A stretch of DNA of 33,680 bases, taken from the IMG/VR virus record IMGVR_UViG_2526164670_000016, positions 1 through 33,680 of that record, one strand, 5' to 3'. This document shows, one piece after another, positions 1,981-28,927 of the stretch (its first letter is position 1; every line of letters begins with the position of its first letter). The DNA comes from a virus. Taxonomy: Duplodnaviria > Heunggongvirae > Uroviricota > Caudoviricetes. Under the pieces are notes generated by a model, which was not told where the DNA came from, made no database searches, and worked only from the letters and a program-made list of their open reading frames with translations. Both the position numbers and the translations under genes were made by a program.

Positions 1981-2071
1981 CCAAACTGCGCAGGCGGGTG
2001 CGGTGTAGTGCCGTTTCCGTCTTGGATCCGCTTCCGTCTGCCTGCTGTCGCTTACGCTGTGGGCCGCTGTT

Positions 2072-2108
2072 GAACGAACGAAAGAAAGGCCGCACGGTGG
2101 CGGCCTTT
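2072..2108 (-). terminator. Rho-independent terminator at the end of the minus-strand tail operon (possibly bidirectional)
   Basis: Hairpin AAAGGCCGC-ACGGTG-GCGGCCTTT at 2085-2108; on the minus strand it is followed by TTTCTTTCGTTCG, about 65 bp after the stop of the 2175-3899 gene. Confidence 0.55.
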
Positions 2109-2174
2109 AATATTTGCGCCTGCTGTGGCGCGTTCTGTGGTGTCTGGTGAGATCTGCGGTACTGCCGCTTTTTG

Positions 2175-3899
2175 TCAGGCTATCAGGGGACCGTATTTGC
2201 TTTTCAATGTATCGGTTTTAGTGGCCGCTGCGGTGAACTGCGCAGCCTGCCCGCTGGCCCCTGTATTGGGGTGAGTATGTGACGCGGCGGTCTCTGCCAG
2301 TTCCCTCACCACGTCCAGGGTGTCAGTGAGTAGTGTCAGTACGTTAATTTCTTCGCTTCCCAGTTTTACCACCGGGGCAATCAGCTGTTGCGCCTGGGCC
2401 ACACTTCGGCGGATACCGCTGATTTTCTCAGTCAGTGCGCCGCTGACGTTTGACGTGACATTCCCTTTCACGTCGTCTGTAACATCGCCCGCGACGTCCC
2501 GTTTTGCGTTCCGGCCAACACTGACGGAATTGTCCTTGCTGCAGGTTACTGTCAGGTTGCCGGATGTGCCGATACTGTAATCACCCTCGCTGATATGGAC
2601 CACCGCCCCGGCCAGAAGAGTGGCCGTGCCAAGCACGGTTGTTTTATCCGTTGCCTGGACCGTAGTTTCACGGACAACCACTTTGCGGATCTCTTCGTCG
2701 GTGGTGACTTCGCGCATCATGGAGTTTTCGCGGATTGTCTGGTCCGTCTGGCGTTCCCAGTCTCCGGCAACCGTCACGCGCTGCGATACACCATCGCGCT
2801 GTTGCTGCAACTGCTCGCCGGGTTTAACCGCTGGCAGGTTATGACCCTCCGCCATAATCTGGCGCACGAAGGGCTTATCCTGCCGCCCCTCAGTGAACCC
2901 GATTTCAACCAGCGTGCCAGGGGGCGGAAACTGGAACATTCCCGACTCGCTGCCCGCCATTGGTACAGGTAGCGGAACGGCAGAATAAACCGGCGTATTT
3001 GCGGCTGGCTTGCCGTATTCGTCAAGCAGCTGGAGATCCACGGCATAGCGCGGGCGGAATGGATCGGCAATATTACCCCCTGAAACATCCTCGCTTGGCG
3101 CTTCCACCCTGGCGAATTTTGGAAGATGCAGGCCGCTTGCCAGCTCCGGGAATGCGTTTTCAATCTGCCGCTGAATGGGTGATTTTTGCAATGGCTGGCC
3201 GTTGGCTTTGTTGCGTGGCTGCCAGGTGATTGTCATGTCGTCGTTATTTAGCCGGACCTGGTTTAACCGCTGGCCGTTCACCTCAGCACCCGGGCGCAGG
3301 CTCTGAATCATCGGCACAACCATTGAATTGCCGCCTGCCGATGCCTGGCTAAATTCGTGCGGGATCTCTACTGGTTTACCCGCAAAAAGACTGTGCTCAG
3401 CAGCACCGACGAAGACATCCCCGTCCGGCAGCTGATACCAAAGATAATCCGTCATTGAAAATGCTCGGCCCAGACTGGCAAAAAGCTGGTAGCCCGTGCC
3501 GCTGTGCGTAAAGTGGGGGATCGGTTTATCTGCATAAGCAGCGCCGACCGGCGTTGTGACGGTCAGCCCGCTTTGCTCACTTATCCAGTCAGTAATCTGG
3601 CGCAACGTTGGATGCTGGAAAGAACACGGCCACAATTTATCAAAGATGCCGACCAGCTCACGCACGAACAACCGGCATGTTCCATTATCAGCAGGCTGTG
3701 ACCGTTCGACGTACCCGGTAAACCAGCGCAGGACCAGACCATCATAACCAACATCGATACGCACCATTTTGCCGGTGTAATCTGTCTCTGTCCCCGCCGT
3801 AATAAACCCCCGACCGCACGCGTTCAGCTCCAGCACGATATTGCAGTCAATCAGATGGACCGGATCAGAGGAAAGGTACAGGCGTTTAATTGGTTTCAT
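2175..3899 (-). CDS. Baseplate hub-spike fusion protein (gpD/gp27-like hub fused to gpV/gp5-like spike), 574 aa
   Basis: Last gene of the tail operon next to att; length is roughly P2 D plus V; C-terminal segment (GTLVEIGF..., ...HTHPNTGASGQ) resembles spike proteins from memory. Family assignment not confirmed by search. Confidence 0.55.
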   Translation of the reverse strand: MKPIKRLYLSSDPVHLIDCNIVLELNACGRGFITAGTETDYTGKMVRIDVGYDGLVLRWFTGYVERSQPADNGTCRLFVRELVGIFDKLWPCSFQHPTLRQITDWISEQSGLTVTTPVGAAYADKPIPHFTHSGTGYQLFASLGRAFSMTDYLWYQLPDGDVFVGAAEHSLFAGKPVEIPHEFSQASAGGNSMVVPMIQSLRPGAEVNGQRLNQVRLNNDDMTITWQPRNKANGQPLQKSPIQRQIENAFPELASGLHLPKFARVEAPSEDVSGGNIADPFRPRYAVDLQLLDEYGKPAANTPVYSAVPLPVPMAGSESGMFQFPPPGTLVEIGFTEGRQDKPFVRQIMAEGHNLPAVKPGEQLQQQRDGVSQRVTVAGDWERQTDQTIRENSMMREVTTDEEIRKVVVRETTVQATDKTTVLGTATLLAGAVVHISEGDYSIGTSGNLTVTCSKDNSVSVGRNAKRDVAGDVTDDVKGNVTSNVSGALTEKISGIRRSVAQAQQLIAPVVKLGSEEINVLTLLTDTLDVVRELAETAASHTHPNTGASGQAAQFTAAATKTDTLKSKYGPLIA

Positions 3900-3906
3900 C
3901 GTTTAA

Positions 3907-4449
3907 TTACCCCAGCGCATCGTTGACCGGCTTTAAGACCTTTTCTTCAAACCAGCTCATTTTGTCGGCTGGTTCATCAGCACCTGCAGCCGGACCCGCG
4001 CCCTTTGCCCCTGTTTGCCTGGTGGTGGCCGTCGCGTTGCCTTTTCTGGCCTGTCGTTTTTCCGGGACGCTGCCTTTTTCACGCAGGGTGAAACTTACCT
4101 GCCAGGCAAGGCGATCCTCCTGCGGTACGGCATCAATCTGACCGGTGAACGTGGCTTCACGAAGGTTGATAGCCGTTGCCGTCGCATTGGCAACACGGTA
4201 CTTTTTCAGTGCGCCGCTGGCTTCGGTTGCGGATGCCAGCTGGAAAAGCCGCTGTAAAACGGCTTCATCGTCGAATGTCACCAGACCCGACACGCGCAGC
4301 TCTTTGGCCTTGATACCCTGTTCAGCATTGGCCGTGCTCGATGTCTGGCCCGACTGGTCCTTCTCCTGAAACTGCATGGAAGGTGAAACCAGCATGTTCT
4401 GCATGGCGATCCCTTCACCATCAAGCGCGAGTAATGCGGTCTGGCTCAT
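3907..4449 (-). CDS. Tail/baseplate-associated protein, function unassigned, 180 aa
   Basis: ORF in the tail operon between Tfa-like and hub-spike genes; GC content matches the surrounding structural genes; no family recognised. Confidence 0.4.
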   Translation of the reverse strand: MSQTALLALDGEGIAMQNMLVSPSMQFQEKDQSGQTSSTANAEQGIKAKELRVSGLVTFDDEAVLQRLFQLASATEASGALKKYRVANATATAINLREATFTGQIDAVPQEDRLAWQVSFTLREKGSVPEKRQARKGNATATTRQTGAKGAGPAAGADEPADKMSWFEEKVLKPVNDALG

Positions 4450-5143
4450 GTAGCATCCTCCCTAAGTCAGATAACGAATCCCCGATAAACATCATCGCGG
4501 CGGTATGCACTGCCGTTGTTTGCGGGATGCATTTCAGCAATTCAGCGGCAGCAACGGCATAACTCCCGCTGTAACTGAATGAAAAAATATTCGCACTGGC
4601 GGCTTTCAGGTCGTCCAGTCCCTGGCTGAGTGAGGACAGCAAACCGGCCCGTTCCTGAATAAATCCCGTCACCTGGTTTTTTAGATCTGTTGTGGTGGTA
4701 CTGACTGCGGCGGCCAGCTGCGCGGCGGCAACACGCTGGGCATTCAGCGCCAGCCGGTTGGTTGAGACTGATAACGGCGCACTGGCTGGCAATACATCGG
4801 CTTTAACCGGCAACTGCATTTTTACCGTGCTGAGTTCTGCGGCGGCTGCCGCCATGCGGCTTACCTGCGTAAAAGCGGGGGCAGGAAATACGGTGGACAG
4901 TTTATTCAGCCCCTGCATAAATGCGTCGTGGGTATTCTCCGCTACCATCATGACGATGACATCGCCGCTACCGCCACCGGATAACAGCTTTTTAGCAAGA
5001 TATTCCATCGCATTGGCCGGACTAAGATAAGCGCCTGAATCCGTGGACTGACCCAGCCCATACACCCACGGATGGGCCGGAATGATTGAACAGGATAATG
5101 CCGACATATCATCGGCAATCCTTATAATTGAATCACGCCACAT
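4421..5143 (-). CDS. Tail-module protein, function unassigned (about 240 aa from the ATG at 5143; track ORF extends to a TTG at 5191)
   Basis: Long ORF in the tail operon; ATG at 5143 has GGAG about 10 nt upstream and overlaps the Tfa stop by 11 nt; no family recognised. Confidence 0.35.
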   Translation of the reverse strand: MWRDSIIRIADDMSALSCSIIPAHPWVYGLGQSTDSGAYLSPANAMEYLAKKLLSGGGSGDVIVMMVAENTHDAFMQGLNKLSTVFPAPAFTQVSRMAAAAAELSTVKMQLPVKADVLPASAPLSVSTNRLALNAQRVAAAQLAAAVSTTTTDLKNQVTGFIQERAGLLSSLSQGLDDLKAASANIFSFSYSGSYAVAAAELLKCIPQTTAVHTAAMMFIGDSLSDLGRMLHEPDRITRA

Positions 5144-5570
5144 CGGCAGGTTGCTCCGGCCAGACAATATCTGTCGCTGAGTCGGTATCAATGCGCATCA
5201 GCGATACCCTGTATTCACGCCAGGCAGTAAAAAGCGCTTTTTCTGCGTCCGTCGCTTTACCCAGATCAACGGCATCCTGCAAAGGTGCCAGGATATTGCT
5301 GGCCGCAGCCATCAGGGCAGATTTTTGCGTCTCAGCCCTTACGATTGATTCTTCTTCAGAAAGCGGCAGGGGGTCAGAAAGGACCGGCTGACCATATTCA
5401 TTTGGGATGATGATACGCCCTGAACTCTTATCAATCAGATACTGATACCAGCGCTCAGAAATCAACAAGGCGTCAGCAGGCCAGCCCAGTTCCGATTTTT
5501 CATAATCTGGCTTCAACGAAAGGAAGAAAAATCCATTCATGGAAGCACTGTAATAATATTGCTCATCCAT
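5133..5570 (-). CDS. Tail fibre assembly protein (Tfa / P2 gpG-like chaperone), 145 aa
   Basis: Small ORF directly downstream of the tail fibre gene (4-bp gap); sequence resembles Tfa-family proteins; position is conserved. Confidence 0.7.
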   Translation of the reverse strand: MDEQYYYSASMNGFFFLSLKPDYEKSELGWPADALLISERWYQYLIDKSSGRIIIPNEYGQPVLSDPLPLSEEESIVRAETQKSALMAAASNILAPLQDAVDLGKATDAEKALFTAWREYRVSLMRIDTDSATDIVWPEQPADVA

Positions 5571-5573
5571 TTT

Positions 5574-7496
5574 TTAATATCCCGTTGCCAGCCAGAACAA
5601 AGGAAAGCCCTGGTTTGCGTTAAGCCTTGCCGTCGTATTGGAATATTGCGACACCGAACATTCGAGCGTCCCGGCCACATTCGAGGTAAAAGGCGTGACC
5701 TGAATATTCCGGCACGCATTCGGGAATGCGATCGGGAACGTAATATTTTGATAACCGGACGTCTGGTTCGTGTAACCCCACTGACGGATCCTTCCTGTTG
5801 TTCCGTCGCGCTCCCAGCCGTTTTGCCCCAGGCTGGCCGTATTTTTCAGGTTATAGCGTGCGTCGCTCTCGGCTTTTGTATACGACCCAATCGACCCCGC
5901 CGAAATGGTGATGTTTGCTGTACCGTTAAATGCCACGCCGTTGATGGTGCGGGCGGTTTGCAATTGTGACGCTGAAACCGCATTACCATTTGACGCAAGA
6001 GCGCCAATCTCTGCCGGGGTGGGCTTGTTCGCCACATCATAGGCTTTTGTCCATGCAGACCAGGTGCCACCATAAAGCGTTCGGGCATAACTGCGGGAAT
6101 TGTTGTACACGCGATAAATTTGCGTGATTCCGGCATGCTTAAGGACTTCAAGAGAACCCGCGATCGCCTCCGGATAATTCGTCCCGGTTTGCGCCTGCGC
6201 GTTCGCGGGCTGGTAATAAAGCCCTGGCGTGGTGTAGTTGTTCAGATTTGCTGCATTACCAATCCCTTCGGCCAACCGAAAAATATCAGACGGGAAAAGA
6301 TCGATATTACTCGATAGCGCTCGACCGTTAACCGTTCGTGTTGAGGGCACGCGACTATTAGCATTATCGTTAGCCGCCTTAACTGCTTTCGGCGTCGCGG
6401 CGACGGCTTCCGACTCGCTGTCGGTGGCGCTGCTCAGTTGAATAATCCCTTTCTGCGCTGTCGTAGCGTCCTGCGCGGTGTATTTACCTTTCGCCAGGTC
6501 ATAGGTTGCCTTAACCGCTTTCGGCGTTGCCGCTACTTCTTCAGAATCGCTATCCGTGGCGCTGCTTAATTGCGTGAATCCCTTTGCGGTTGTGGTGGCG
6601 TCCGGGTGGTTGCGTGATTGTTCGTGTTTTTTCAGCGCATCACTGGCCTGTTGCTCGTTCAGCGTACCTTTTGGACGAAGATCGGTAATGACGCCGTTTG
6701 CGTCGATACTCGCAAGGGCAAACACGAAATGTTGCTCACCATTCTGCACGTAATCTTTAAGGTCGGCGGCAACCGTGATTTTGCTTTGTACCGCCCAAAT
6801 GCTCGTAAGCGTTCCCATCCACGCCACATCCAGCCAGACCTTAACCGGCTTTGTTGACACGGTAATATTCTGGTTTGCGGCCAACACTGAACGCAGACCG
6901 GCAAGGTATCCAGTACCTTTAGTGACAAAATACTGGGTGCCTGTTTTCGCGACCAGATAACCCGCATCAAAGAACGACGCCGCACCATACAGATCGATAT
7001 TTTCGCGGCGCTGGCGTTCATCCATTGCCGCCAGACGGGCAGTAAAATCAATCTGCCATGTCTCTGCCGGGGTGGTAATTTCCGTTGCTTCCCTGGCTCC
7101 GCTGTATTCCATCAGCATGGAACGGACCAGAACGTTTCCCTGCTGGCCGTTCGCATTTTTGATTTTACGCTGGGTCGGGGCATGAATAATCATCGCCAGT
7201 GTACCGGTGGCTTTATTTGCCAGACCGATCCAGTTGAAATCAAAATCACCCACATCTGCCCCCATCGTGACGGAATAAACGACAGAGTTTTCATTCACAA
7301 CACCGGATTTACTCACCACCTGACGATAAACAATTTTATCCGCTGCGGGTGCTGTCTCGGTATTATCAATCGGCTTATCAGCATCCAGCCCCGGAATATA
7401 CGCGAAAATAAATTCATCCAGCGCGACGGGCTGATTATTAATAGCCTGCTGGGCTTTCCACTCTGTAAATGCTTTTGTAATAACAGCCTGTGACAT
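5574..7496 (-). CDS. Tail fibre protein (P2 gpH-like), 640 aa
   Basis: Contains the duplicated motif HEQSRNHPDATTTAKGFTQLSSATDS...AATPKAVKA that I recall from P2 gpH; Gly/Asn/Thr-rich C-terminal receptor-binding region. Confidence 0.8.
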   Translation of the reverse strand: MSQAVITKAFTEWKAQQAINNQPVALDEFIFAYIPGLDADKPIDNTETAPAADKIVYRQVVSKSGVVNENSVVYSVTMGADVGDFDFNWIGLANKATGTLAMIIHAPTQRKIKNANGQQGNVLVRSMLMEYSGAREATEITTPAETWQIDFTARLAAMDERQRRENIDLYGAASFFDAGYLVAKTGTQYFVTKGTGYLAGLRSVLAANQNITVSTKPVKVWLDVAWMGTLTSIWAVQSKITVAADLKDYVQNGEQHFVFALASIDANGVITDLRPKGTLNEQQASDALKKHEQSRNHPDATTTAKGFTQLSSATDSDSEEVAATPKAVKATYDLAKGKYTAQDATTAQKGIIQLSSATDSESEAVAATPKAVKAANDNANSRVPSTRTVNGRALSSNIDLFPSDIFRLAEGIGNAANLNNYTTPGLYYQPANAQAQTGTNYPEAIAGSLEVLKHAGITQIYRVYNNSRSYARTLYGGTWSAWTKAYDVANKPTPAEIGALASNGNAVSASQLQTARTINGVAFNGTANITISAGSIGSYTKAESDARYNLKNTASLGQNGWERDGTTGRIRQWGYTNQTSGYQNITFPIAFPNACRNIQVTPFTSNVAGTLECSVSQYSNTTARLNANQGFPLFWLATGY

Positions 7497-7507
7497 AGGT
7501 TTTTCCT

Positions 7508-8107
7508 CTACTTCAAACTTGCGCTGTATGTTATTTGGGGCTGGTTATTCACATCGCCCAGGGTGGCAGGCCAGCAAATATATTCCCCCTGATACCAGCC
7601 AATATTGATATTCAGTGGCAGGGATGTGATCACTTCAAACTGGTAACGGCGGCATGTACGCCCATATTTACGGATGATTTCCAGCAGGAGATCGCCATTT
7701 TCCGCAATCTGGCTGTTTGTCACCCGAACAACAATCACGTCCCAGTCGAGTCCGTCCTGCCGCTCCAGCAATTCAACGTAACCAATCCCCAGTCGCTCAA
7801 AAATGGCAATAAAGCCCGCCACCTCTCCGGCCTGCTGCGCATTGATAAATGCGTAGCTCACCCGTTTGCGGAAGATGTCGAGCGGCTCCCCCTTAAACCG
7901 ATCGATATCGCGTTCCCAGGCAATCAGGTTTAACAGCGGTTCGGGGCAGACCAGCGGGTCAAACTGCTTTAACGGCCAGGAGATCCACCCGTACACCTGC
8001 GACCAGAACTTCACGCAGGCCCGCACCAGCCTGGCGGGGTCGCCTTTGTTCAGCCACGACGGCAATTTCAGACCGGCAAGCAACTTTGAAAACTCAGTCA
8101 TTCTCAA
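7508..8107 (-). CDS. Baseplate/tail protein (P2 gpI-like or Mu gp48/DUF2313-like), 199 aa
   Basis: Position between the J-like baseplate gene and the tail fibre gene; overlaps the J-like stop; size and position fit gpI/gp48-type proteins. Confidence 0.5.
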   Translation of the reverse strand: MRMTEFSKLLAGLKLPSWLNKGDPARLVRACVKFWSQVYGWISWPLKQFDPLVCPEPLLNLIAWERDIDRFKGEPLDIFRKRVSYAFINAQQAGEVAGFIAIFERLGIGYVELLERQDGLDWDVIVVRVTNSQIAENGDLLLEIIRKYGRTCRRYQFEVITSLPLNINIGWYQGEYICWPATLGDVNNQPQITYSASLK

Positions 8108-9278
8108 TCTCCACCGTTAACCCTGACAGGCGCGGGACCGACAGTTCGCTGACAATATCCGTCAGTGAAAAATGCAGTGAATCGACAACCGGAAAAGCTT
8201 TGTGGATCTCGCGGCCCAGATTCGAAAAGGAATAGCGCGAATAGGGCTGCGTCTTCTTAACGTCGTAATTGGCGTTCTCGCGAAACGCGCAACGAATCAG
8301 GTCGGTAATACCGGTTTTTAACGCGCTCAGGTCTTCCGCTTCCATGTTTTCCACGCTTTTGACGTATACCGTTACCGTCAGGGTGTGGCTGGTTTCCGGC
8401 ATGGTATAACACTGCAAATCATCACCGTGTCCGTGGTGGCCCTGGGTATTCACATAGTCGTTAACCGCATCAATAAAGGGTTGTGATATTTCGCCACTGT
8501 CCAGCAACAGGTAAGCATTTGCCGTACCCGGTCCCCGTGGGGCATCGTGCAAAAAGTAAATGCGATCAACGCTCAGGCCCAGCACGCTGGCAATCATGCT
8601 GCGGTAAATAGCGTCAGAGTGATAATTCCCCACCAGATTAAACTGGTTGCGGGTACGGTCGCGCAGCTCGTCGTCGCTTTCCTCGTTGGCTCCCGGCGTA
8701 ATCAGCCATTCGTCCTCATTGACCGCGCTGGCAATCCCGGCCACCGCAACGGGTAAAATCCGGTAATAGCCTGGCGCAAGGTTATAGCCGCTGCCGGTGC
8801 CGGTCGCCGTGACGGTAACCAGCCCGCTTTCAACCCCGGCAGGCAGCGTCACGTCTTCATTCACCGCCAGCACATAAACCACGCCGTTAATGCGCTCGGT
8901 TTGCACCAGTGTTCCGGCAGGCACGACGACCACATCCGCCGCGTTCAGCTTGTAGAACCGCAGCACGCCAGCGGCAGCGCTGGCCGGTTTAGGCACGATA
9001 TGAACCGCCCAGGCCAGCAGGCGCAGCATGGGACCGGTGGCCGTCGCAACAAACATATTGCGCAGGACCACATCGATCATCGCCGCCCGCAGCCATAACA
9101 CCGGCGTGGTGACAATCTTCGAAATCAGCCGCCAGAAAGGCGACATCCTCGACGTGTTTGTAACGAACCCTTCCGCCTGCACGGTGGCTTTAAACGCTGC
9201 CGTAATTTCGGCCTCTGTCGCGGGCATCCCGCTGTCATTCAGTACCTTTTCGAAATCAACGTCGGGTTTCTCAGTCAT
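8094..9278 (-). CDS. Baseplate J-like protein (P2 gpJ / Mu gp47 family), 394 aa
   Basis: Size and position immediately after the small W/gp46-like gene (ATGACTGA start/stop overlap). Confidence 0.65.
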   Translation of the reverse strand: MTEKPDVDFEKVLNDSGMPATEAEITAAFKATVQAEGFVTNTSRMSPFWRLISKIVTTPVLWLRAAMIDVVLRNMFVATATGPMLRLLAWAVHIVPKPASAAAGVLRFYKLNAADVVVVPAGTLVQTERINGVVYVLAVNEDVTLPAGVESGLVTVTATGTGSGYNLAPGYYRILPVAVAGIASAVNEDEWLITPGANEESDDELRDRTRNQFNLVGNYHSDAIYRSMIASVLGLSVDRIYFLHDAPRGPGTANAYLLLDSGEISQPFIDAVNDYVNTQGHHGHGDDLQCYTMPETSHTLTVTVYVKSVENMEAEDLSALKTGITDLIRCAFRENANYDVKKTQPYSRYSFSNLGREIHKAFPVVDSLHFSLTDIVSELSVPRLSGLTVEIEND

Positions 9279-9607
9279 AGTTAACCTCTGTACTGACAGG
9301 GCCGAAATCGTAGGTTTCCGCCGTGATATACAACCTCGAAAGGGTTTCTTCGGTGATCACTATGGTTCCTGGGACCAGACGTTCGTCGCTTTCCACCAGT
9401 AAGGACAGTTGTGTCAGCACGTCACCGCGCATTGTCGGGCTACGTTCACCGATCAGGCGGGTGGTGATACCGCTTTCCAGAATGCTGTGAATAATGTCCT
9501 GGGTGATGCTGTCGCGGTTATCGCAACGGCGCGGCTCGTTGCCCGCTGTCCAGCGTGAAATCGCCGTCAGTGATCAAAAGGTCGATGTATAACGGTTCGG
9601 TACTCAT
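9271..9607 (-). pseudogene. Small baseplate protein gene (gp46/W-like, about 111 aa) interrupted by a 1-nt frameshift
   Basis: ATG at 9607 overlaps the tape-measure stop (ATGA); frame 0 reads MSTEPLYIDLLITDGDFTLDSGQRAAPLR then stops; the +1 frame continues NEPRRCDNRDSITQDIIHSILESGITTRLIGERSP...TEVNYD and ends in a TGA overlapping the J-like ATG. One extra base near the GGGC run (about 9540) explains it. The track shows no ORF of 60 aa or more here. Confidence 0.5.
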
Positions 9608-19642: not shown

Positions 19643-21454
19643 ATGGCTAAATATTCCGATGAATTAAAAGAAGCGGCCCGCACGCTTTATATAAAAAGCT
19701 GGACGCCGAAAGATATTGCGCAGGAACTGAATATTCCACCGCGTACAATTTACCACTGGGCTGACGTCGGGAAGTGGGCATCACTGCAGCCTGTTGAATC
19801 GGTGGAAAATGTCATCGCCCGCCGTATCGACCAGCTCTCCCGCCGCGAGAAAAAAACAGCGCTGGAACTGGAAGAACTGCGCGATCTAATTGCTCACCAT
19901 GTGAAACTCATGGCGCAGCGCAACAAGCACGCCGAAAAGCTGGCAGAAATTCAGGCCCAGAAAACGGCTTATGATGGTGAAGGGTACTGCCTCAGCAGCG
20001 CAGGCGGGGAACCAGGGGAAAGAAAGCGCCGGTATAAGAAAAACGACGTTTCCGGTATTACAGCGGAAATGCTCGACACCTGGGCGCAGGAACATCTCTT
20101 CGAGTACCAGCTGCACTGCCGCGAACATAAAGGCGAAGACTGGCGCTTCATTCTGAAAAGCCGCCAGGTGGGTATGACCTATTATTTCGCCTGGGAAGCA
20201 TTCGAAGACGCCGTCATTACCGGTGACAACCAGGTCTTTTTCTCTGCAAGCCGATCCCAGTCGGAAATCTTCCGCGAATACATCGTCCAGATCGCCCAGA
20301 ACCATTTCGGCGTGACGCTGACGGGTAAAAATATCCGCCTCAGTAACGGCGCAATACTGCGCTTTTTGTCCACGAACGCCAGCACCGCGCAGGGCTTTAA
20401 CGGCCACCTGTATGGCGATGAGGTTTTCTGGATCCCGAAATTCACGCGCCTGCATGAAGTTGCCAGCGCAATGGCAACGCATAACAAATACCGCACGACC
20501 TACTTTTCGACGCCCAGCGCGAAAACGCACCAGGCTTACCCGGTCTGGACTGGCGAAGCCTGGCGCGGGGACGACCCGAAACGCAAAGGTGTGAAGTTCC
20601 CGAACGAAAGCGAAATGTGCCAGGGCATTCTTTGCCCGGACCAGATCTGGCGCTACATCATCACGATGGAAGACGCTATCGAAGGCGGCCTCGGGGCGCT
20701 TGTCGATATTGAACGGCTGCGCAACAAATACAGCCCGACCGCGTTCGCCATGCTCTACATGTGCCAGTTTGTTGACAGTAAGGACGCGGTTTTCAAGTTC
20801 TCCGCGCTTGTCGGCTGTGAAGTGGACCGGGCCACATGGGGCGACTTTGATCTGACCGCTACGCGGCCTTTCGGCAATCGCGAAGTATGGGCAGGTTTTG
20901 ACCCGTCGCGCTCCGGCGACAACTCAACATTTGTGTTAATCGCGCCCCCTATAGAGGACGGCGAGCGCTTCCGCGTGCTGGCCGTCTGGCAATGGCAGGG
21001 TTTTAACTTCAGCTGGCAGGCCGACCAGATAAAGCAGCTTATGCGCCGCTTTAACATCACTTACATCGGGATCGATACAACCGGCATAGGTAAAGGCGTT
21101 TATGACCTTGTCAGCAAATTTGCGCCACGCGAAGCCACACCAATTCTTTACAGCGTCGAAAGCAAAAACCGCCTGGTGATGAAGATGATCGACGTTGTCG
21201 AGCGTAAGCGCATCGAATGGGCAAAAGACGCCGTAGACGAAACGAACAAGGAGCGCGTCGAAATTCCGGCCAGCTTTATGGCTATCCGGCGCACGACAAC
21301 CAACAGCGGCAATGCGCTGACGTTTGTTGCCGAACGTTCAGACGCGACCGGCCATGCAGATGTTTTCTTCGCTATCTCGCACGCCGTAATTAACGAACCT
21401 ATCGATCACGAATATGACCGCCCATCGGGCTGGTACTTTGGGAAAGCAGCATGA
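19643..21454 (+). CDS. P: Terminase ATPase (large) subunit (P2 gpP family), 603 aa
   Basis: Length and P2-like position, divergent from O and followed by the portal gene with an ATGA overlap. Confidence 0.85.
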   Translation: MAKYSDELKEAARTLYIKSWTPKDIAQELNIPPRTIYHWADVGKWASLQPVESVENVIARRIDQLSRREKKTALELEELRDLIAHHVKLMAQRNKHAEKLAEIQAQKTAYDGEGYCLSSAGGEPGERKRRYKKNDVSGITAEMLDTWAQEHLFEYQLHCREHKGEDWRFILKSRQVGMTYYFAWEAFEDAVITGDNQVFFSASRSQSEIFREYIVQIAQNHFGVTLTGKNIRLSNGAILRFLSTNASTAQGFNGHLYGDEVFWIPKFTRLHEVASAMATHNKYRTTYFSTPSAKTHQAYPVWTGEAWRGDDPKRKGVKFPNESEMCQGILCPDQIWRYIITMEDAIEGGLGALVDIERLRNKYSPTAFAMLYMCQFVDSKDAVFKFSALVGCEVDRATWGDFDLTATRPFGNREVWAGFDPSRSGDNSTFVLIAPPIEDGERFRVLAVWQWQGFNFSWQADQIKQLMRRFNITYIGIDTTGIGKGVYDLVSKFAPREATPILYSVESKNRLVMKMIDVVERKRIEWAKDAVDETNKERVEIPASFMAIRRTTTNSGNALTFVAERSDATGHADVFFAISHAVINEPIDHEYDRPSGWYFGKAA

Positions 21455-22512
21455 CAAAGAAACAGCGTAAAAATAAAAAATTCGGGTCCATGACCGGCAG
21501 CCGGGTTGAAACCTTCACGCCAGGGCGCGGAAGCGTGATCACATTTGGCGAACCAGAACCCATCCTGACGACCGGCACGGATTATCACAATATCTGGTAT
21601 GACAATGAGTATGACCACTGGCGACTTCCGATTGATCGCCTGGCGCTGGCCCAGTTGCCGAACCTTAACGGCCAGCATGGTGGTGTACTGTATGCGCGGC
21701 GCAATATGGTGGCCGGTGGCTACATCGGCGGCGGCCTGACGCCTGACCAGGTCGAACAGGCTGTCTTTGATTACCTGCTGTTTGGTGACGTTGCTATCCT
21801 GAAAATTCGTAACGTATTCGGGGAAGTGATCGACCTGCTGCCGCTGCCGTCGCTGTATCTTCGCTGCCGAAAAGACGGGTCGTTTGCTGTTTTGCAGGAA
21901 GGGCCAGCACTTATCTATGACCCGGAAGACATCGTCTTTTTTAAAATGTACGACCCGCGCCAGCAGGTGTATGGCCTGCCTGACTATATTGGCGGCATCC
22001 ATTCGGTGTTACTCAACAGTGAGGCAACCATCTTCCGACGCCGTTACTACAACAACGGGGCGCACATGGGCTTTATTCTCTATACCAGCGATCCGAATCT
22101 TACTCTGGAAATGGAAAACGAAATCAAAGAGAAGATCGCCCAGTCCAAAGGGCTGGGTAACTTCCGAAATATGTTTATCAACATCCCGAAGGGCGACCCG
22201 GAAGGGGTTAAAATCCTGCCGGTGGGCGAAGTCAGCGCAAAGGACGAATTTGCCAACATCAAAGGGATCACCGCACAGGATATCTTTACCGCTCACCGTT
22301 TCCCCGCTGGCCTGGCGGGTATCATCCCGACCAACGGCGCGGTAATGGGCAACCCTGAAACCGCCCGCACAACCTATCGCAAGGATGAAGTTATCCCCTT
22401 GCAGCGCAAGCTAATGAACGGCGTCAACAATGACCCGGAGATCCCCGCACACTTGCACCTGGTTTTTGACGTGGATATCCCGGCAATTACCACCGAAAAG
22501 GGCGAAAAATGA
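21451..22512 (+). CDS. Q: Portal protein (P2 gpQ family), 353 aa
   Basis: Size and position after the large terminase gene, with translational coupling. Confidence 0.85.
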   Translation: MTKKQRKNKKFGSMTGSRVETFTPGRGSVITFGEPEPILTTGTDYHNIWYDNEYDHWRLPIDRLALAQLPNLNGQHGGVLYARRNMVAGGYIGGGLTPDQVEQAVFDYLLFGDVAILKIRNVFGEVIDLLPLPSLYLRCRKDGSFAVLQEGPALIYDPEDIVFFKMYDPRQQVYGLPDYIGGIHSVLLNSEATIFRRRYYNNGAHMGFILYTSDPNLTLEMENEIKEKIAQSKGLGNFRNMFINIPKGDPEGVKILPVGEVSAKDEFANIKGITAQDIFTAHRFPAGLAGIIPTNGAVMGNPETARTTYRKDEVIPLQRKLMNGVNNDPEIPAHLHLVFDVDIPAITTEKGEK

Positions 22513-22943: not shown

Positions 22944-24299
22944 ATGCGAATGACCGCTCCAACCAAATCCTTTACTGATGGATTTTGTGAGAATGATGAT
23001 ATTTTTGAAAGAAAAAAACTCCACGATATCATTATGCGGGTTGCCACTAACGCCCCTGATAAAAGTTTAGTTTTAGCATTAGATGATAAATGGGGTAATG
23101 GGAAAACTTCATTTGTAAAAATGATGGAGTCAGAGATAAACAAAAACCACTCCGACGATTTCGAAGTCATCTATTTTGATGCTTTTAAAAGTGATTATCA
23201 GTCTGATCCATTTGTGGCATTAACTTCTAGCATATATTCTCTTATAAACAAAAGTGATGGAAAGTTAAAAACGCTATGTAAGGAACTGTTAGACATTGGA
23301 AAAAAACTTGGTGCCTCATTTGCTATAAATGGTGCGAAGTTTGCAATCAGTACACTTTCAGGTGGGTTACTATCTGGAACCGTTTTTGATAAGGCTACAG
23401 ACACAATAACTGACTCTATCTCTTCGCCCGTAGAGGAATATATAGAAAGCAAAATAAAAAATAGTGAAAGTGAAATCGCGATTATTGAGCGGTTTGGTGA
23501 TTTATTAACTAAAATTTGTGAACAAAGTGGTAAGAAAATATTTTTTATAATCGATGAGCTTGATCGTGCCCGCCCTGACTTTTCATTAGACTTATTAGAG
23601 AAAATAAAACATATATTTTCGGTTAAAGGTGTTATTTTCCTGTTGGTTGTTAATCGTGAACAATTTGAAAAAAGCATTGAATGTCGATATGGCAATATTA
23701 ACGCAAGGCTGTACCTTAATAAATTTGTCCATTACTGGTTTAGTCTTCCGAAGAGAAGCTATCTTTCTGAGGATTGTTTAAATAGATTTAAGCACTCCAC
23801 TATAAAACAATACCTTCTCACTATAGATAATGGTAATAATTTCTTCGTTCGCAATGGCTCCCTTGTAAATACGCTGGCGTATTTGTTAGAAGTCAATGGT
23901 TGTTCACTACGAGAGGCTGAGCGTTGTTACTCTGTGTTTGCAGTTATTGCAAATCCGAATAAAATAAACGAGTACAGTACCGATGCTTATAAAGTTGCAA
24001 TGGGACTAGTTGCATTTCTGAAAGTTCATAACCCTCAAATTCTATCTGATATCATATATAAGCGATATGAATTAAAAGAAATTCTACCAAAGCTATCAAT
24101 CAAAAGAGAACATTTAGAATATATCTCGGAGGTCTACTTACTTGATCACTTACTACAGTACCACTACAAATCAGATGAAGAATTAAAAAACCCTGAGAAC
24201 CAAAATCAATTTTCTGACTTACAAGGTTATTTTGGTCGAAGAGCCCCTGTTTTAGAAATGATGTTTGAAACAGTTGAAGGGTTTAATATTAGTTATTAA
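22944..24299 (+). CDS. KAP-family P-loop NTPase (PifA-like), 451 aa; candidate phage-exclusion protein
   Basis: Walker A WGNGKTS (aa 50-56) and Walker B IFFIIDELDRARPD (about aa 200) in the KAP style, with a hydrophobic insert between them (ASFAINGAKFAISTLSGGLLSGTVF); low-GC gene with its own RBS (GAGGAAAG) in the cargo island. Confidence 0.6.
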   Translation: MRMTAPTKSFTDGFCENDDIFERKKLHDIIMRVATNAPDKSLVLALDDKWGNGKTSFVKMMESEINKNHSDDFEVIYFDAFKSDYQSDPFVALTSSIYSLINKSDGKLKTLCKELLDIGKKLGASFAINGAKFAISTLSGGLLSGTVFDKATDTITDSISSPVEEYIESKIKNSESEIAIIERFGDLLTKICEQSGKKIFFIIDELDRARPDFSLDLLEKIKHIFSVKGVIFLLVVNREQFEKSIECRYGNINARLYLNKFVHYWFSLPKRSYLSEDCLNRFKHSTIKQYLLTIDNGNNFFVRNGSLVNTLAYLLEVNGCSLREAERCYSVFAVIANPNKINEYSTDAYKVAMGLVAFLKVHNPQILSDIIYKRYELKEILPKLSIKREHLEYISEVYLLDHLLQYHYKSDEELKNPENQNQFSDLQGYFGRRAPVLEMMFETVEGFNISY

Positions 24300-24346
24300 A
24301 CCGTAAAAACATTATTTGCAGGCTCTTTGCCGCCCGCACCCGCAGA

Positions 24347-24389
24347 ATCCTGCAGGCCGACGCAAACAGTTGCGACGTCCTGCAGGATT
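24347..24389. repeat. GC-rich inverted repeat (AATCCTGCAGG ... CCTGCAGGATT with a partly palindromic 22-nt centre)
   Basis: Perfect 11-bp arms at 24347-24357 and 24379-24389 between the convergent KAP gene and the 24394-25104 ORF. Confidence 0.5.
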
Positions 24390-24393
24390 GCAT

Positions 24394-25050
24394 TCATTCT
24401 TTTGGGGGGCGACCTTCTGCACCCGCCAGCATTTTTTGATACTCCCCGACCGGATCAAACCGCAGACGCGTGGCATCTATGCCGTGGTTTTCCCGCAGAC
24501 GTTCCCATAATTTATTCACCATCCGTGACTCGTCGGGTAATTGACGCGTTATCAACTGGCCGCCAGCACTGGCCCGATAAACTTTTCCGCCAATCTCCAG
24601 ACGGCTCCCCATTAACAGCGAAACGGCCTGAATCTCTGAAATCTCAACCGAACACAACACCGCATCTGCCAGCAGACTGGCAACCGCAGGGGCAAGCGCT
24701 GCCTGCCTAGCTTTTTCAGCCTCCGATCTGGCCTCGGTTTTTTCAACGGCAGAACGCCAGGCGACATCTAATTCGCTTCCTGGCTCATAAGGTGATCCGC
24801 TTTGCCGCCTTTTGAATGGTGTTTCACGTAGTCGCCGCATCAATTTGCGCCGCGTTGGCTGGTCCATATCTTCAAAATCGACGATTTCATCGTCTGAATC
24901 TTCTGTCGTTAACTCTCCGTCAGCTGGCACAGCCATTTCTGACATTGAAAAATCGGTGATTTTTTCGTCTTCCGTAGAGTTATTGACAGAACTCGAACTC
25001 AAACACTCTGTACATTTTTGTGCAGTATAAAAAGTCTTCATGTTGATCAT
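24394..25050 (-). CDS. Hypothetical protein, acidic N-terminal region; start uncertain (ATG at 25050 or 25041; track ORF starts at a GTG at 25104)
   Basis: Single open frame across a GC-rich segment that contrasts with the AT-rich flanking cargo genes; no strong RBS; no family recognised. Confidence 0.3.
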   Translation of the reverse strand: MINMKTFYTAQKCTECLSSSSVNNSTEDEKITDFSMSEMAVPADGELTTEDSDDEIVDFEDMDQPTRRKLMRRLRETPFKRRQSGSPYEPGSELDVAWRSAVEKTEARSEAEKARQAALAPAVASLLADAVLCSVEISEIQAVSLLMGSRLEIGGKVYRASAGGQLITRQLPDESRMVNKLWERLRENHGIDATRLRFDPVGEYQKMLAGAEGRPPKE

Positions 25051-25118
25051 CAGTGCATAGACTTTTATGATTAGTTCAAAATGGCATTGTGCAGTATGCT
25101 CCACAACGGGTGAGACTT

Positions 25119-25682: not shown

Positions 25683-25697
25683 ATAAAGGGTATTGAG

Positions 25698-26309
25698 ATG
25701 AATACTGATGTAATAATTCTTTCCAGAACAAAAATGTCTGGAGATAAAATTTGCGTAGGTGGATTAGATCTTAATAGTGGGAAGATGTTAAGATTATTGG
25801 ATAATAGAGCAAGTGCTTTGACTTCAGCTTATCCATATAGTATTGGCGAAACATACTCAATAGAGTTTGCTGAAAGGTATCAAGTAGCAGCCCCACATGT
25901 TGAAGATGTAGCTGTTTATGACTACAGCTTAGCGAAAAGTTTTAATAAAGTAGATCTAGATACTATCGTCCATAAACACTCTGGTACATATAACAATCTT
26001 AGTGAACTCTTCTCTGGAAAACTTCACTGGCAAAACTCCAAGGGATATGCTTTGGAGTCAGACCCTCCGGAATTTAGCGTTCAAATAGCAAAAATTAATA
26101 AAATCCTAGTTAGAAATGGAACTGACTTTCAAGAGTTCGGCTCACTCAATCCGCGCAAAGTTAAATATGTTGGCGAACTTGATATAAATAGACTCCCTAG
26201 TAGAATAAATCCTGGCACACCTATTAGATTTTCTTTAGCTCGACCTTGGGATAAGGATAATAATGGTATTAAAGTGTGTTATTTACAACTATCTGGAGTT
26301 TACATTTAA
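25698..26309 (+). CDS. Hypothetical protein, 203 aa, co-operonic partner of the DUF488-like gene
   Basis: ATG 15 bp after the DUF488 stop with AAAGGG..GAG upstream; AT-rich; no family recognised. Confidence 0.5.
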   Translation: MNTDVIILSRTKMSGDKICVGGLDLNSGKMLRLLDNRASALTSAYPYSIGETYSIEFAERYQVAAPHVEDVAVYDYSLAKSFNKVDLDTIVHKHSGTYNNLSELFSGKLHWQNSKGYALESDPPEFSVQIAKINKILVRNGTDFQEFGSLNPRKVKYVGELDINRLPSRINPGTPIRFSLARPWDKDNNGIKVCYLQLSGVYI

Positions 26310-26428: not shown

Positions 26429-28927
26429 TTACTCTATCGCCTTTCTCCAGCGACTGAGCAACTCATCAACTCTATGCCTTGCCAGCGTTTTACGCCAGTT
26501 CATATCCGCACCGGTCACAATCAACTCCCCTGTAATTTGGTTGGCACGGTAAGTAGTATCAAGCGCAGTCACTTCTCTCCCTTGTACCAGCTTTAGCACT
26601 TGCACAGGTGTGATTTGGATCTTTCTTAACTTCGCCCAATCCAGTACCTGAGCAACTAGGGCTGTAACGTTCTTATCTACTACGCTTTCTTCCTGGCGGA
26701 GCGCATACGCGGCTTTTAAATAGCTTTCCGCTCTAGCTCGGTTATATTCGGTGCACTCACCCACAGTGATACTGTACGCAAGTGACTCAAACTCATCTGC
26801 TGCTGAAACACGCTGCGTTTGTTTGTGGATTTTCAGGCCTTCAGCAATCTCTTTTTTCTGTTCCCACCTTAATTTGCCGATTTCAAATTGCTCTGGAGAT
26901 TCATCCCTAGTCGGCAAAGTCAGATCTGGCCGATAAACAACCTGGCAATCTGTTTGTTTTTTGTACTCAGTACAGTTATTGACACGAGTCCTAGAGGGCG
27001 CAGACGCGCCCTTAAGGTCAACAGCAAGGTCAACGGCCTTGCCTGAATCGTTAATAATCTCCGGTTTCTTACGCACAATCCGATAAGAATGTAGGCGGGT
27101 TTCAACTGGCGGCATGAAGATGTGAGGCATCACCAGTCCTTTAATTAAGGTCTGGTATTCACCGTGATCGTTTGGCTGGTCTTTTTGTTGATACCAGATG
27201 CGCAGTGGCAGATCACAACGGGCAACCAACGCCCCACCCTGCAATTGGGTGTATTGCTGCCAGTCGCCAGCATCCGCTGCACGGTGCAGCTCGGCAAACA
27301 ACGGGTTAATCTGGTCTGCCTTTTCCTGATTGCGGAATCGACGTAGCTCGCGCCAGACTGAAACAGGCGCACCACCAAGGAACTGGAATTGACGAATACC
27401 CCAGCATGATGCCCAGGCCGTCGCATGTTTTGAGGTTTCTTTTAATGGTCTGCCGTTCTCGTCATCTGTTTCACCGTCGAGCGCGTAACCATCAATATTC
27501 TTGCTGATATACTTCACCACATAACCGGTGGCGCTTCCGATTTCATGATCGATAGGCTTCATTTCGAAACGTGGACGAATGCCATGCTTACCCTGCAATT
27601 CGTCCTCATCCTCGCGGGTGGCGTAGTCCTTCATCACTTCCAACAATTCAGCTGAATGTTCTGGTAAGGAAAACAGAAGACCATGCCAGTGTGGCGTTCC
27701 GTCGTGGTGAGATTCAGCCACGCGAAGCCCAAACACCTGAATATCGCGGCGGGCCAACTCAGCGCGGATCTGTTGCCAGACTCGATTAAGATAACGTTGC
27801 GTGGTTCTTGGACTGGCCCCGTTCCATTTGCCATTACGATGACCGAAGACGGTATAGGCATGATATTTGGAAGGTGCTGTCATGGTGAAAAACTGCCCTG
27901 CATAGCCACTTTCGGTAGCGACTTTCTCGAAGCCACCGATGCGAGTCATAAGCTCAACGCGGCGCAAAGCTGGGTTAGATATGCTCTTATCTATTTGCTC
28001 AATGAGTGAAATGCGTTCTTTGGTTTCCTGATCTTCCAGCTCAAGCCTGGCCATAATCGCCCGGCTGCGTTTCCGCCTAGTGTCCCACTCTTCAACATGA
28101 TGCTTACTGCAATATGGCGCAGCGCCTCGCTTCACATCACCAAAAGCGATGTGCAGATGTTCACGCCAGCGCGTGCCGTACTTTTTAAGATTTCGGTGCC
28201 AGTAGCGATCATCCAGCATCTTGCTGATACCGGTCGTCGCCTCATCAATAAACAATTTACCCCGGCAATACTTTTCCCAGTTCGGTGGCGTTAGAAAGAA
28301 AAGACGCGCAAGTTGTGCCGCCTCGGTGTAAAGGTATTCGGCATACCGGCGATCACTTTGCGTCTCTACCGTTTCGTGTACCTCGCTCAGCACCGACCGC
28401 ATATAGATCGCAATATCCTGCGCTAATAGTTCAACATCTTCCGGCGTGTAGTCCGGCAGCCTGTTGAATCTCTCAACTAAACCGTTAAGGGTATCAAATA
28501 CATGGTAAAGCGGGTTTAACTTTTTGAATGCTGTTTCAGCTTGTGATTTTGCGTCTTCGGTCATCGCAATTGCGTATTGAGCATTCACCATATTGATGGG
28601 CGGCAGCTCTCTGCGGATGATGTCTCTTACTGCCTGACGGGCAATATGTCGGCCCTTCATCGTGTGAATACTGTCAATGCGAGAAGCCAAGCGCAGGCGT
28701 ATAAAGCGAGGAAGTCTCGAAAGGGTAAGTTTCACCCACGACAAAAACTCTTGTTCTTGACCCAATTCGAATAGATCAACAACAGGAGTCTTATCAACAT
28801 AAATAGCTGCATTAGGCTTTTGCCACTCGTAATCGTAATTGATATCAGCAGCAGAATTAGACATACCCCTGCCGCCAACTAACTGGCGGCGATTGTTACT
28901 CGGCCGAACAAACGCGGAGTCTGTCAC
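26429..28927 (-). CDS. A: Replication initiation endonuclease (P2 gpA-like rolling-circle initiator), 832 aa from the GTG at 28927
   Basis: HUH motif (DGTPHWHGLLF) and catalytic tyrosine motif (GYVVKYISKNIDGYALDG) as I recall from P2 gpA; GTGA overlap with the Dam stop, alternative ATG at 28864. Confidence 0.85.
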   Translation of the reverse strand: MTDSAFVRPSNNRRQLVGGRGMSNSAADINYDYEWQKPNAAIYVDKTPVVDLFELGQEQEFLSWVKLTLSRLPRFIRLRLASRIDSIHTMKGRHIARQAVRDIIRRELPPINMVNAQYAIAMTEDAKSQAETAFKKLNPLYHVFDTLNGLVERFNRLPDYTPEDVELLAQDIAIYMRSVLSEVHETVETQSDRRYAEYLYTEAAQLARLFFLTPPNWEKYCRGKLFIDEATTGISKMLDDRYWHRNLKKYGTRWREHLHIAFGDVKRGAAPYCSKHHVEEWDTRRKRSRAIMARLELEDQETKERISLIEQIDKSISNPALRRVELMTRIGGFEKVATESGYAGQFFTMTAPSKYHAYTVFGHRNGKWNGASPRTTQRYLNRVWQQIRAELARRDIQVFGLRVAESHHDGTPHWHGLLFSLPEHSAELLEVMKDYATREDEDELQGKHGIRPRFEMKPIDHEIGSATGYVVKYISKNIDGYALDGETDDENGRPLKETSKHATAWASCWGIRQFQFLGGAPVSVWRELRRFRNQEKADQINPLFAELHRAADAGDWQQYTQLQGGALVARCDLPLRIWYQQKDQPNDHGEYQTLIKGLVMPHIFMPPVETRLHSYRIVRKKPEIINDSGKAVDLAVDLKGASAPSRTRVNNCTEYKKQTDCQVVYRPDLTLPTRDESPEQFEIGKLRWEQKKEIAEGLKIHKQTQRVSAADEFESLAYSITVGECTEYNRARAESYLKAAYALRQEESVVDKNVTALVAQVLDWAKLRKIQITPVQVLKLVQGREVTALDTTYRANQITGELIVTGADMNWRKTLARHRVDELLSRWRKAIE

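What the first reader, a model, noticed from the sequence alone, without database searches (positions are those of the whole stretch)
6370..6605. Tandem internal duplication in the tail fibre gene
Two imperfect direct repeats of about 130 bp encode the motif KGFTQLSSATDS(D/E)SE(E/A)VAATPKAVKA twice. Such repeats are substrates for recombination that can change fibre length or specificity.
Basis: seen in the sequence. Interest (0 to 1): 0.25.

Follow-up and report, generated by a model that had tools for sequence, protein, structure and literature searches.

The report
Known tail-fibre repeat, two tandem copies
The two 132-base repeats are real, but they are two copies of a long-known 44-residue phage tail-fibre repeat (Pfam PF03406) in an ordinary E. 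coli prophage fibre gene, so the finding is correct and unremarkable.

Summary
The minus-strand gene 5574..7496 encodes a 640-aa tail fibre. It holds two in-frame tandem units with a period of 132 nt (44 aa), at aa 299-342 and 343-386. They share 71 of 96 nt (codon shuffles reach at most 50) and 26 of 33 aa (shuffles reach at most 13).

The units are Pfam PF03406 "phage tail fibre repeat" (126 bits against a cut-off of 22). The same unit occurs in a P2-like gpH (two copies), in P1 gene S (a 132-nt "repeated element a1" in GenBank M81956.1) and in Mu S.

The duplication is old. 25 of 36 mismatches fall at third codon positions, dS is saturated, and the longest exact run is 11 nt. First and last copies also carry position-specific signatures that are shared across relatives.

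Among the 120 closest homologues, copy number is 1 (75), 2 (32), 3 (12) or 4 (1), always in 44-aa register. One relative has two neighbouring copies that are 94% identical at DNA level, so copy number is still changing in the family.

Homology to related fibres starts or stops at copy 1. The repeat therefore sits at the seam between the baseplate-attachment module and an exchangeable unit made of the receptor-binding part and part of the chaperone gene. A breakpoint at about aa 300 is already published for related phages.

Verdict: already known, low interest.

The parts
5574..7496 (-). Tail fibre gene, 640 aa
   Evidence: ORF listing. Pfam PF12571 + PF03406 x2 + PF21882. PHROG tail fibre families, best phrog_8239 at E 2.6e-205. 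A matching 640-aa protein (identity shown as 100%) is named 'tail fiber protein [Escherichia coli]' and is seen on 114 contigs.
6471..6602 (-). Repeat copy 1, aa 299-342 (HMM core aa 299-336 = 6489-6602); head KGFTQL, tail ATYDLAKGKYTAQ (inter-repeat linker type)
6339..6470 (-). Repeat copy 2, aa 343-386 (HMM core aa 343-380 = 6357-6470); head QKGIIQL, tail AANDNANSRVPST (terminal-repeat type)
   Evidence: It aligns to Mu tail fibre protein S residues 103-155 (5YVQ sequence, E 5e-9).
7026..7490 (-). N-terminal tail-collar fibre domain (PF12571, aa 3-157), the presumed baseplate-attachment part
   Evidence: It is conserved in nearly all of the 120 homologues. AF2 gives pLDDT mostly between 70 and 93 here.
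5667..6266 (-). Distal region similar to R-type pyocin tail fibres (aa ~411-610), the presumed receptor-binding part
   Evidence: phmmer against PDB sequences: 6CL6, 6CL5 and 6CT8, E about 6e-17.
5577..5798 (-). C-terminal Gp53-like_C domain (PF21882, aa 567-640)
5133..5570 (-). Tail fibre assembly (chaperone) gene, 145 aa
   Evidence: PF02413 Caudo_TAP, E 3.5e-30. phrog_188.
5289..6516 (-). Exchangeable cassette: the distal two-thirds of the fibre gene plus the 5' two-thirds of tfa. It has no strong BLAST homology to the otherwise collinear E. coli O45:H2 prophage; only 6087-6434 matches, at 67%. Its fibre-side edge lies inside repeat copy 1.
   Evidence: blastn of window 2000-9500 against L001: 6517-9500 at 90.5%, 2792-5288 at 94.2%, and only a 67% match at 6087-6434 in between. 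Megablast ends fall at 6598/6604 in 22 E. coli genomes and at 6518 in Salmonella phages SI7, SW3 and SW5.

Best explanation
The feature is two tandem copies of the Pfam PF03406 'phage tail fibre repeat', a 44-residue unit. They lie in the fibre gene of a P2/HP1-like (Peduoviridae) prophage of E. coli.

Shown here:
- The units sit directly after the conserved N-terminal baseplate-attachment domain and before the variable distal part, which resembles R-pyocin fibres.
- Relatives carry 1 to 4 units in exact 44-aa register.
- The array has a fixed grammar: the first head is KGF, later heads are QKGI/V, internal linkers are YDLAxGKYTAQ, and the last tail is AANDNANGRVPS.
- BLAST-detectable homology to other fibre genes starts or stops at the first unit.

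Inferred:
- Each unit is a structural module of the trimeric fibre shaft, so copy number sets shaft length.
- Because the unit is conserved at DNA level among otherwise unrelated fibre genes, it acts as a homology patch. Homologous recombination, probably by phage recombinases, joins one attachment module to another unit made of the receptor-binding part and part of the chaperone gene, and so changes host specificity.
- In-register unequal exchange or replication slippage between units adds or removes copies.

The two copies in this gene are ancient and too diverged to recombine efficiently with each other.
For: Identity of the repeat:
- PF03406 scores 126.4 bits (cut-off 22) with two stretches.
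- The unit is homologous to Mu S.
- It matches P1 gene S, where GenBank M81956.1 annotates a 132-nt 'repeated element a1'.
- A P2-like gpH has two tandem copies with the same 44-aa period.

Age of the duplication:
- There are 36 mismatches in 114 nt, 25 of them at third codon positions.
- NG86 gives dN 0.13 with dS not computable, i.e. saturated.
- The longest exact run is 11 nt.

Copy number:
- The 120 closest homologues have 1, 2, 3 or 4 copies in 75, 32, 12 and 1 proteins.
- The gaps in the alignment correspond to one repeat unit each (the hits are spaced 44 aa apart in every array).
- Head and tail types are position-specific in 67 distinct arrays.
- Copies 2 and 3 of the four-copy gene on L005 are 94% identical with a 59-nt exact run. 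This points to a recent unit duplication.

Seam at the repeat:
- The collinear E. coli O45:H2 prophage matches at 6517-9500 and 2792-5288, with only a weak 67% match (6087-6434) between.
- Megablast ends fall at 6518, 6598 and 6604.
- P0065, P0103 and P0116 share aa 299-640 at 83-87% identity. P0065 and P0103 carry a P2-type N-terminus; P0116 (407 aa) lacks that domain. P0065 lies in a P2-type tail gene set.
- DNA homology to L005 runs from 6603 down to 5362, that is from the start of the repeats into tfa. Homology to a P2-like H gene covers only 6374-6628, the repeats themselves.

Literature:
- A GARD breakpoint at about aa 300 is reported in Eganvirus fibres (PMC8986868).
- Phage Rad52-like recombinases recombine short, diverged homologies (PMC3945230).
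Against: - No structure of the repeat could be obtained. The AF2 monomer model has pLDDT below 50 over aa 283-370, and in the Mu cryo-EM study only the N-terminus of the fibre protein was modelled (PMC11915804). The 'one unit = one shaft module' step is therefore inference.
- The fine identity profile against L001 falls from about 70% to about 45% rather than from 90%, so that junction is less sharp than the BLAST summary suggests.
- Other junctions exist further downstream, with HSP ends at aa 405-576. The repeat is one seam among several.
- The 22 E. coli hits may belong to one prophage lineage, so the independent junction events number a few, not dozens.
Confidence: 0.85

Rival explanations
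1. A recent, lineage-specific internal tandem duplication that is an active intragenic recombination substrate.
For: The two units are adjacent, in frame and clearly homologous. Recent unit duplication does occur in the family: copies 2 and 3 on L005 are 94% identical. Both copies here share a Val before AATPKAVKA where most relatives have Leu, a weak hint of past homogenisation.
Against: DNA identity is only 68-74%, the longest exact run is 11 nt, and synonymous sites are saturated. The copies are no more similar to each other than to repeats in other genes: r2 matches P0065 r4 at 78%, against 68% for r1 versus r2. All 17 near-identical proteins (P0001-P0017) and P0018 (86% identical) have two copies.
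Confidence: 0.07
2. A template-repeat/variable-repeat pair of a diversity-generating retroelement that targets the fibre gene.
For: DGRs use imperfect direct repeats of about 100-150 bp and often target phage tail fibre genes (established knowledge). The size here is similar.
Against: The mismatches are not adenine-specific: A is in copy 1 at 11 of 36 mismatches and in copy 2 at 7 of 36, and all substitution types occur. Both copies are translated in frame in the middle of the gene, not at its 3' end. No reverse-transcriptase domain appeared in the 25 ORFs scanned with Pfam.
Confidence: 0.01
3. Part of a site-specific invertible segment of the Gin/Cin/Min type that switches fibre C-termini.
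For: In P1 and Mu the same repeat lies in the constant part of gene S, just upstream of the invertible segment (PMC11915804).
Against: No invertase domain was found in the scanned ORFs. No meaningful inverted repeats flank the fibre and tfa region; there are only 16-21 nt matches consistent with chance. There is no oppositely oriented alternative fibre tip or tfa downstream, because all neighbouring genes are on the minus strand.
Confidence: 0.01

Closest known systems
Pfam PF03406 Phage_fiber_2 (phage tail fibre repeat; InterPro IPR005068)
   Same: Both units match the full 42-position model (1-41/42) far above threshold. The family is described from lambda Stf and related prophage fibres (PMC3368898).
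   Different: Nothing essential differs. The natural period here, including the linker, is 44 aa, against the roughly 40-aa Pfam model.
P2-like tail fibre protein gpH (Escherichia phage P2_AC1, gp23)
   Same: It has two tandem units 44 aa apart with the same grammar, KGF first and KGL second. It lies next to a tail fibre assembly gene and downstream of baseplate J/I genes.
   Different: The repeats start at aa 168 rather than 299, after a shorter N-terminal part. The distal part is unrelated at DNA level: only 6374-6628 is shared.
Phage P1 gene S constant segment, 'repeated element a0/a1' (GenBank M81956.1), and Mu tail fibre protein S
   Same: P1's a1 element is exactly 132 nt and encodes YTAQDASTTQKGLVQLSSATNSDSETMAATPKAVKS.... 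Mu S residues 103-155 align at E 5e-9.
   Different: P1 has one full and one partial unit, and Mu has one. Both have a downstream invertible segment and an invertase, which are absent here.
Fibres of Irrigatiovirus (Salmonella phage SI7) and of the E. coli O45:H2 FWSEC0003 prophage
   Same: The tail gene order is collinear and the N-terminal fibre part is about 83% identical at DNA level.
   Different: They carry one repeat unit, a different distal fibre part and a different tfa 5' part.
R-type pyocin tail fibres (PDB 6CL5, 6CL6, 6CT8)
   Same: The distal region, aa ~411-610, is homologous at E about 6e-17.
   Different: The match covers only aa ~411-610, distal to the repeats. It says nothing about the repeat itself.

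Membership tests
PF03406 Phage_fiber_2 repeat | Sequence match to the family HMM above the curated gathering score | tested here: met
   126.4 bits against a cut-off of 22, E 2.9e-37, two stretches; the best is aa 301-341 on model positions 1-41 of 42.
PF03406 Phage_fiber_2 repeat | A unit of about 40 residues that occurs singly or in tandem arrays | tested here: met
   The period is 44 aa (132 nt) here. Relatives have 1 to 4 units in the same register.
PF03406 Phage_fiber_2 repeat | Found in phage tail fibre proteins | tested here: met
   The host protein has a PF12571 N-terminus and a Gp53-like C-terminus. Its neighbours are Baseplate_J, Tail_P2_I and Caudo_TAP genes, and the window is otherwise a P2/HP1-like prophage.
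PF03406 Phage_fiber_2 repeat | Forms part of a trimeric fibre shaft | not testable with these tools
   Only monomer prediction is available, and it gives pLDDT below 50 across aa 283-370. No solved structure covering the repeat was identified.
Diversity-generating retroelement TR/VR pair | Differences between the repeats restricted to adenines of the template repeat | tested here: not met
   Only 11 of 36 (copy 1) or 7 of 36 (copy 2) mismatches involve A, and 25 of 36 are at third codon positions.
Diversity-generating retroelement TR/VR pair | Reverse-transcriptase gene next to the repeats | tested here: not met
   No RT domain was found in the 25 ORFs scanned against Pfam, including all ORFs around the fibre gene. 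Small ORFs were not scanned.
Gin/Cin/Min invertible fibre segment | Serine invertase gene plus inverted crossover sites flanking alternative fibre tips | tested here: not met
   There is no invertase domain, only short inverted matches consistent with chance, and all neighbouring genes lie on one strand.

The most novel reading that the evidence does not exclude
Repeat copy number might be a fast-switching length dial. Unit gain and loss could occur at measurable frequency within prophage populations and be selected to match the depth of the host's O-antigen or capsule layer. The strict 'first / middle / last' grammar would then reflect selection for an evolvable, recombination-ready linker and not only for folding. 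The data do not exclude this: copy number is 1 to 4 among close relatives, and one gene has a 94%-identical neighbouring pair. Nothing here shows a link to host surface structure, and the two copies in this window are too diverged to switch quickly.
Probability: 0.08. Interest if true: 0.35.

Novelty: already known. Interest (0 to 1): 0.08.

Why it matters
The finding matters only as annotation. It marks where the attachment module of this prophage's fibre ends and where the exchangeable unit (receptor-binding part plus part of the chaperone gene) begins. That is a practical splice point for anyone engineering host range in P2-like phages or tailocins. The repeat, its spread across P1, P2, Mu and lambda-type fibres, and a recombination breakpoint at this position are all already described.

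Tried and rejected
- Tandem Repeats Finder, even at minimum score 30, reported only an unrelated 11-nt array. Two copies this diverged probably score below its threshold, so this does not count against the repeat.
- An AlphaFold2 monomer model built from a 65-sequence alignment gave pLDDT below 50 across aa 283-370. It shows only a tentative extended segment plus helix in each unit. I therefore ran no fold search on the repeat.
- The DGR reading was rejected on the mismatch spectrum.
- The invertible-segment reading was rejected: no inverted repeats and no invertase.
- The 1992 papers on P2 H and on P1/p15B fibre genes are not held. I cite them only through the reference list of PMC3945230 and through the annotation of GenBank M81956.1.
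- One literature search failed on a term that was too short.
- No complete E. coli genome in the collection holds this exact fibre variant at 80% coverage or more, although a matching 640-aa protein (identity shown as 100%) is on 114 contigs elsewhere.

Full report
**Observation.**
The window carries a minus-strand ORF at 5574..7496 that encodes 640 aa. Inside it, the repeat finder reports a single long direct-repeat family. It has two 96-nt copies, at 6376-6471 and 6508-6603, that are 74% identical and spaced 132 nt apart. The spacing equals 44 codons, so both copies are read in the same frame. Copy 1 is aa 299-342, DATTTAKGFTQLSSATDSDSEEVAATPKAVKATYDLAKGKYTAQ. Copy 2 is aa 343-386, DATTAQKGIIQLSSATDSESEAVAATPKAVKAANDNANSRVPST.

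The similarity is far beyond chance. 71 of 96 nt match, against at most 50 in 100 codon shuffles. 26 of 33 residues match, against at most 13 in 200 shuffles. Tandem Repeats Finder misses the pair, most likely because two copies this diverged score below its threshold.

**What it is.**
Pfam assigns three families to the protein:
- PF12571, the tail-collar fibre N-terminal domain, at aa 3-157.
- PF03406 Phage_fiber_2, "phage tail fibre repeat", at 126.4 bits against a cut-off of 22, in two stretches.
- PF21882 Gp53-like_C, at aa 567-640.

The region aa ~411-610 is homologous to R-type pyocin fibres (6CL5, 6CL6, 6CT8; E about 6e-17). The gene lies between Baseplate_J and Tail_P2_I genes on one side and a Caudo_TAP tail-fibre assembly gene (5133..5570) on the other.

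The rest of the window is a P2/HP1-like prophage. It has P2-type capsid, scaffold, terminase and portal genes, gpR/gpS/gpL homologues, HP1 Orf24 and ORF34, replication gene A, a Dam-type methylase and an integrase. A host U32 peptidase gene lies at the left end. The nearest isolated phages are Salmonella phages SI7, SW3 and SW5, which belong to Peduoviridae, genus Irrigatiovirus. A matching 640-aa protein (identity shown as 100%) is present on 114 contigs and is named "tail fiber protein [Escherichia coli]", with PF03406 already attached to it.

**The unit is old and widespread.**
The same 44-aa unit is found in several classic fibres:
- Mu tail fibre protein S, residues 103-155 (E 5e-9).
- The constant part of P1 gene S, where GenBank record M81956.1 annotates a 132-nt "repeated element a1" and a partial "a0".
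- A P2-like gpH, which has two tandem copies 44 aa apart (aa 168-205 and 212-248) with the same KGF-then-KGL order.

A tblastn search with the repeat region finds 282 phage records. They are mostly Escherichia, Stx-converting, Yersinia, Salmonella and Peduovirus phages. PMC3368898 lists the domain as "Pf2" (PF03406, IPR005068). It says the domain was first identified in lambda Stf and that little is known about its structure. A 2021 modelling study placed PF03406 among the Pfam repeat families it treated as lacking a known structure (PMC8078820).

**Age of the duplication in this gene.**
Over the 38-codon core there are 36 nucleotide mismatches, 25 of them at third codon positions. Sixteen codon pairs differ synonymously. 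Nei-Gojobori gives dN = 0.13 and cannot compute dS, which means synonymous sites are saturated. The longest exact run shared by the copies is 11 nt.

The two copies are no closer to each other (68% over 114 nt) than to repeats of other genes; copy 2 matches the last repeat of P0065 at 78%. The pair is therefore an ancient arrangement kept by purifying selection on the protein. It is not a recent duplication, and it is a poor substrate for homologous exchange between its own copies.

**Copy number in relatives.**
I built an HMM from the two copies and searched the 120 best homologues. Of these, 75 have one copy, 32 have two, 12 have three and one has four, always 44 aa apart. In an 11-sequence alignment the gaps between one-, two- and three-copy proteins correspond to one unit each.

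Across 67 distinct arrays the grammar is fixed:
- First copies have the KGF/Y head in 28 of 30 cases.
- Later copies have the KGI/L/V head in 44 of 44 cases.
- Internal tails are YDLAxGKYTAQ.
- Last tails are AANDNANGRVPS.
- Single-copy proteins combine a first-type head with a last-type tail.

This is what in-register gain or loss of whole units would produce. The process is still active somewhere in the family. In the four-copy gene on L005, copies 2 and 3 are 94% identical at DNA level and share a 59-nt exact run.

**The repeat as a module seam.**
A collinear prophage in E. coli O45:H2 FWSEC0003 (L001) matches the window at 6517-9500 (90.5%) and at 2792-5288 (94.2%). Between them only a 67% match at 6087-6434 remains. 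The replaced block is the distal two-thirds of the fibre gene plus the 5' two-thirds of tfa, and its fibre-side edge lies inside copy 1. Megablast homology ends at 6598 or 6604 in 22 E. coli genomes and at 6518 in SI7, SW3 and SW5.

The converse also holds. P0065, P0103 and P0116 share aa 299-640 at 83-87% identity; P0065 and P0103 carry a P2-type N-terminus, while P0116 (407 aa) lacks that domain. P0065 sits in a classic P2 tail gene set with gpV, W, J, I, H, tfa, FI and FII homologues. Its DNA homology to the window runs from 6603, the first codon region of copy 1, down to 5362 inside tfa. With a P2-like H gene, the only shared DNA is 6374-6628, which is the repeats themselves.

Two caveats apply. 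A finer identity profile against L001 shows a drop from about 70% to about 45%, not a cliff from 90%. Other junctions lie further downstream, at aa 405-576, so the repeat is one seam among several.

Independently, a GARD analysis of Eganvirus fibres placed the best-supported breakpoint at about aa 300 (PMC8986868). Phage Rad52-like recombinases are known to recombine short, diverged homologies (PMC3945230). That paper also cites the 1992-1994 work on horizontal exchange of fibre genes among P1, P2, Mu and lambda.

**Mechanism.**
Shown here: the identity of the unit, its position between the attachment part and the distal part, the register-exact copy-number variation, and the homology edges at the unit.

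Inferred: each unit is one structural module of the trimeric shaft, so copy number sets length. The conserved DNA of the unit also provides the homology on which recombination swaps the distal fibre and chaperone cassette.

The structural step could not be tested. The AF2 monomer model has pLDDT below 50 over aa 283-370, with only a tentative extended segment plus helix per unit. In the Mu cryo-EM study only the N-terminus of the fibre protein was modelled.

**Rivals.**
- A DGR template/variable repeat pair is excluded. The mismatches are not adenine-specific, the repeats lie in the middle of the gene, and no reverse transcriptase was found.
- An invertible segment of the Gin/Cin type is excluded. 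There is no invertase, no flanking inverted repeats, and no oppositely oriented alternative tip.
- A recent private duplication is contradicted by the divergence data.

**Verdict.**
The feature is nonetheless a textbook element, already in Pfam, in decades-old GenBank annotation and in the literature. Novelty: already known. Interest: low.

Noticed in passing
window 22944-26309 (+), between the portal gene 21451..22512 and replication gene A 26429..28927(-): A cargo block of candidate anti-phage defence genes. 22944..24299 is a KAP-family P-loop NTPase (PF07693) that matches PADLOC candidate PDC-S20 (E 7e-70). 25089..25682 matches PDC-M45B (E 1e-54). 25698..26309 has a DuOB dual-OB domain. From my own knowledge, this is a position where P2-like phages often carry variable defence genes.
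   Followed up: partly
window 2175-5191 (-): Three genes lie downstream of tfa on the same strand. One is a 574-aa protein with no Pfam or PADLOC hit (2175..3899). One is an HP1_ORF34 baseplate-complex protein (3907..4449). One is a 256-aa protein that matches only phrog_1677, of unknown function (4421..5191), and overlaps the 3' end of tfa. All three are conserved in the E. coli O45:H2 prophage and in Salmonella phage SI7, where they are annotated as hypothetical.
   Followed up: partly
window 5133-5570 (-), tfa: The chaperone gene is itself mosaic. Only its 3' end (up to 5288, about the last 52 codons) is homologous to the O45:H2 prophage. Its 5' part down to 5362 travels with the distal fibre part in a P2-like phage (L005). 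The cassette's second junction therefore lies inside tfa.
   Followed up: partly
window 1-1362 (+) and 32437-33381 (+): A host peptidase U32 gene lies at the left edge and a tyrosine integrase near the right edge, so the window spans almost the whole prophage. ARAGORN found no tRNA gene. The attachment sites were not located.
   Followed up: no
L005 3001-4794 (metagenome contig, P2-like phage): This fibre gene has four PF03406 units. Units 2 and 3 are 94% identical at DNA level with a 59-nt exact run, which points to a recent single-unit duplication.
   Followed up: yes
window 28924-29910 (-): A D12-class N6-adenine DNA methyltransferase gene lies next to replication gene A. This is a common prophage-borne orphan methylase.
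   Followed up: no
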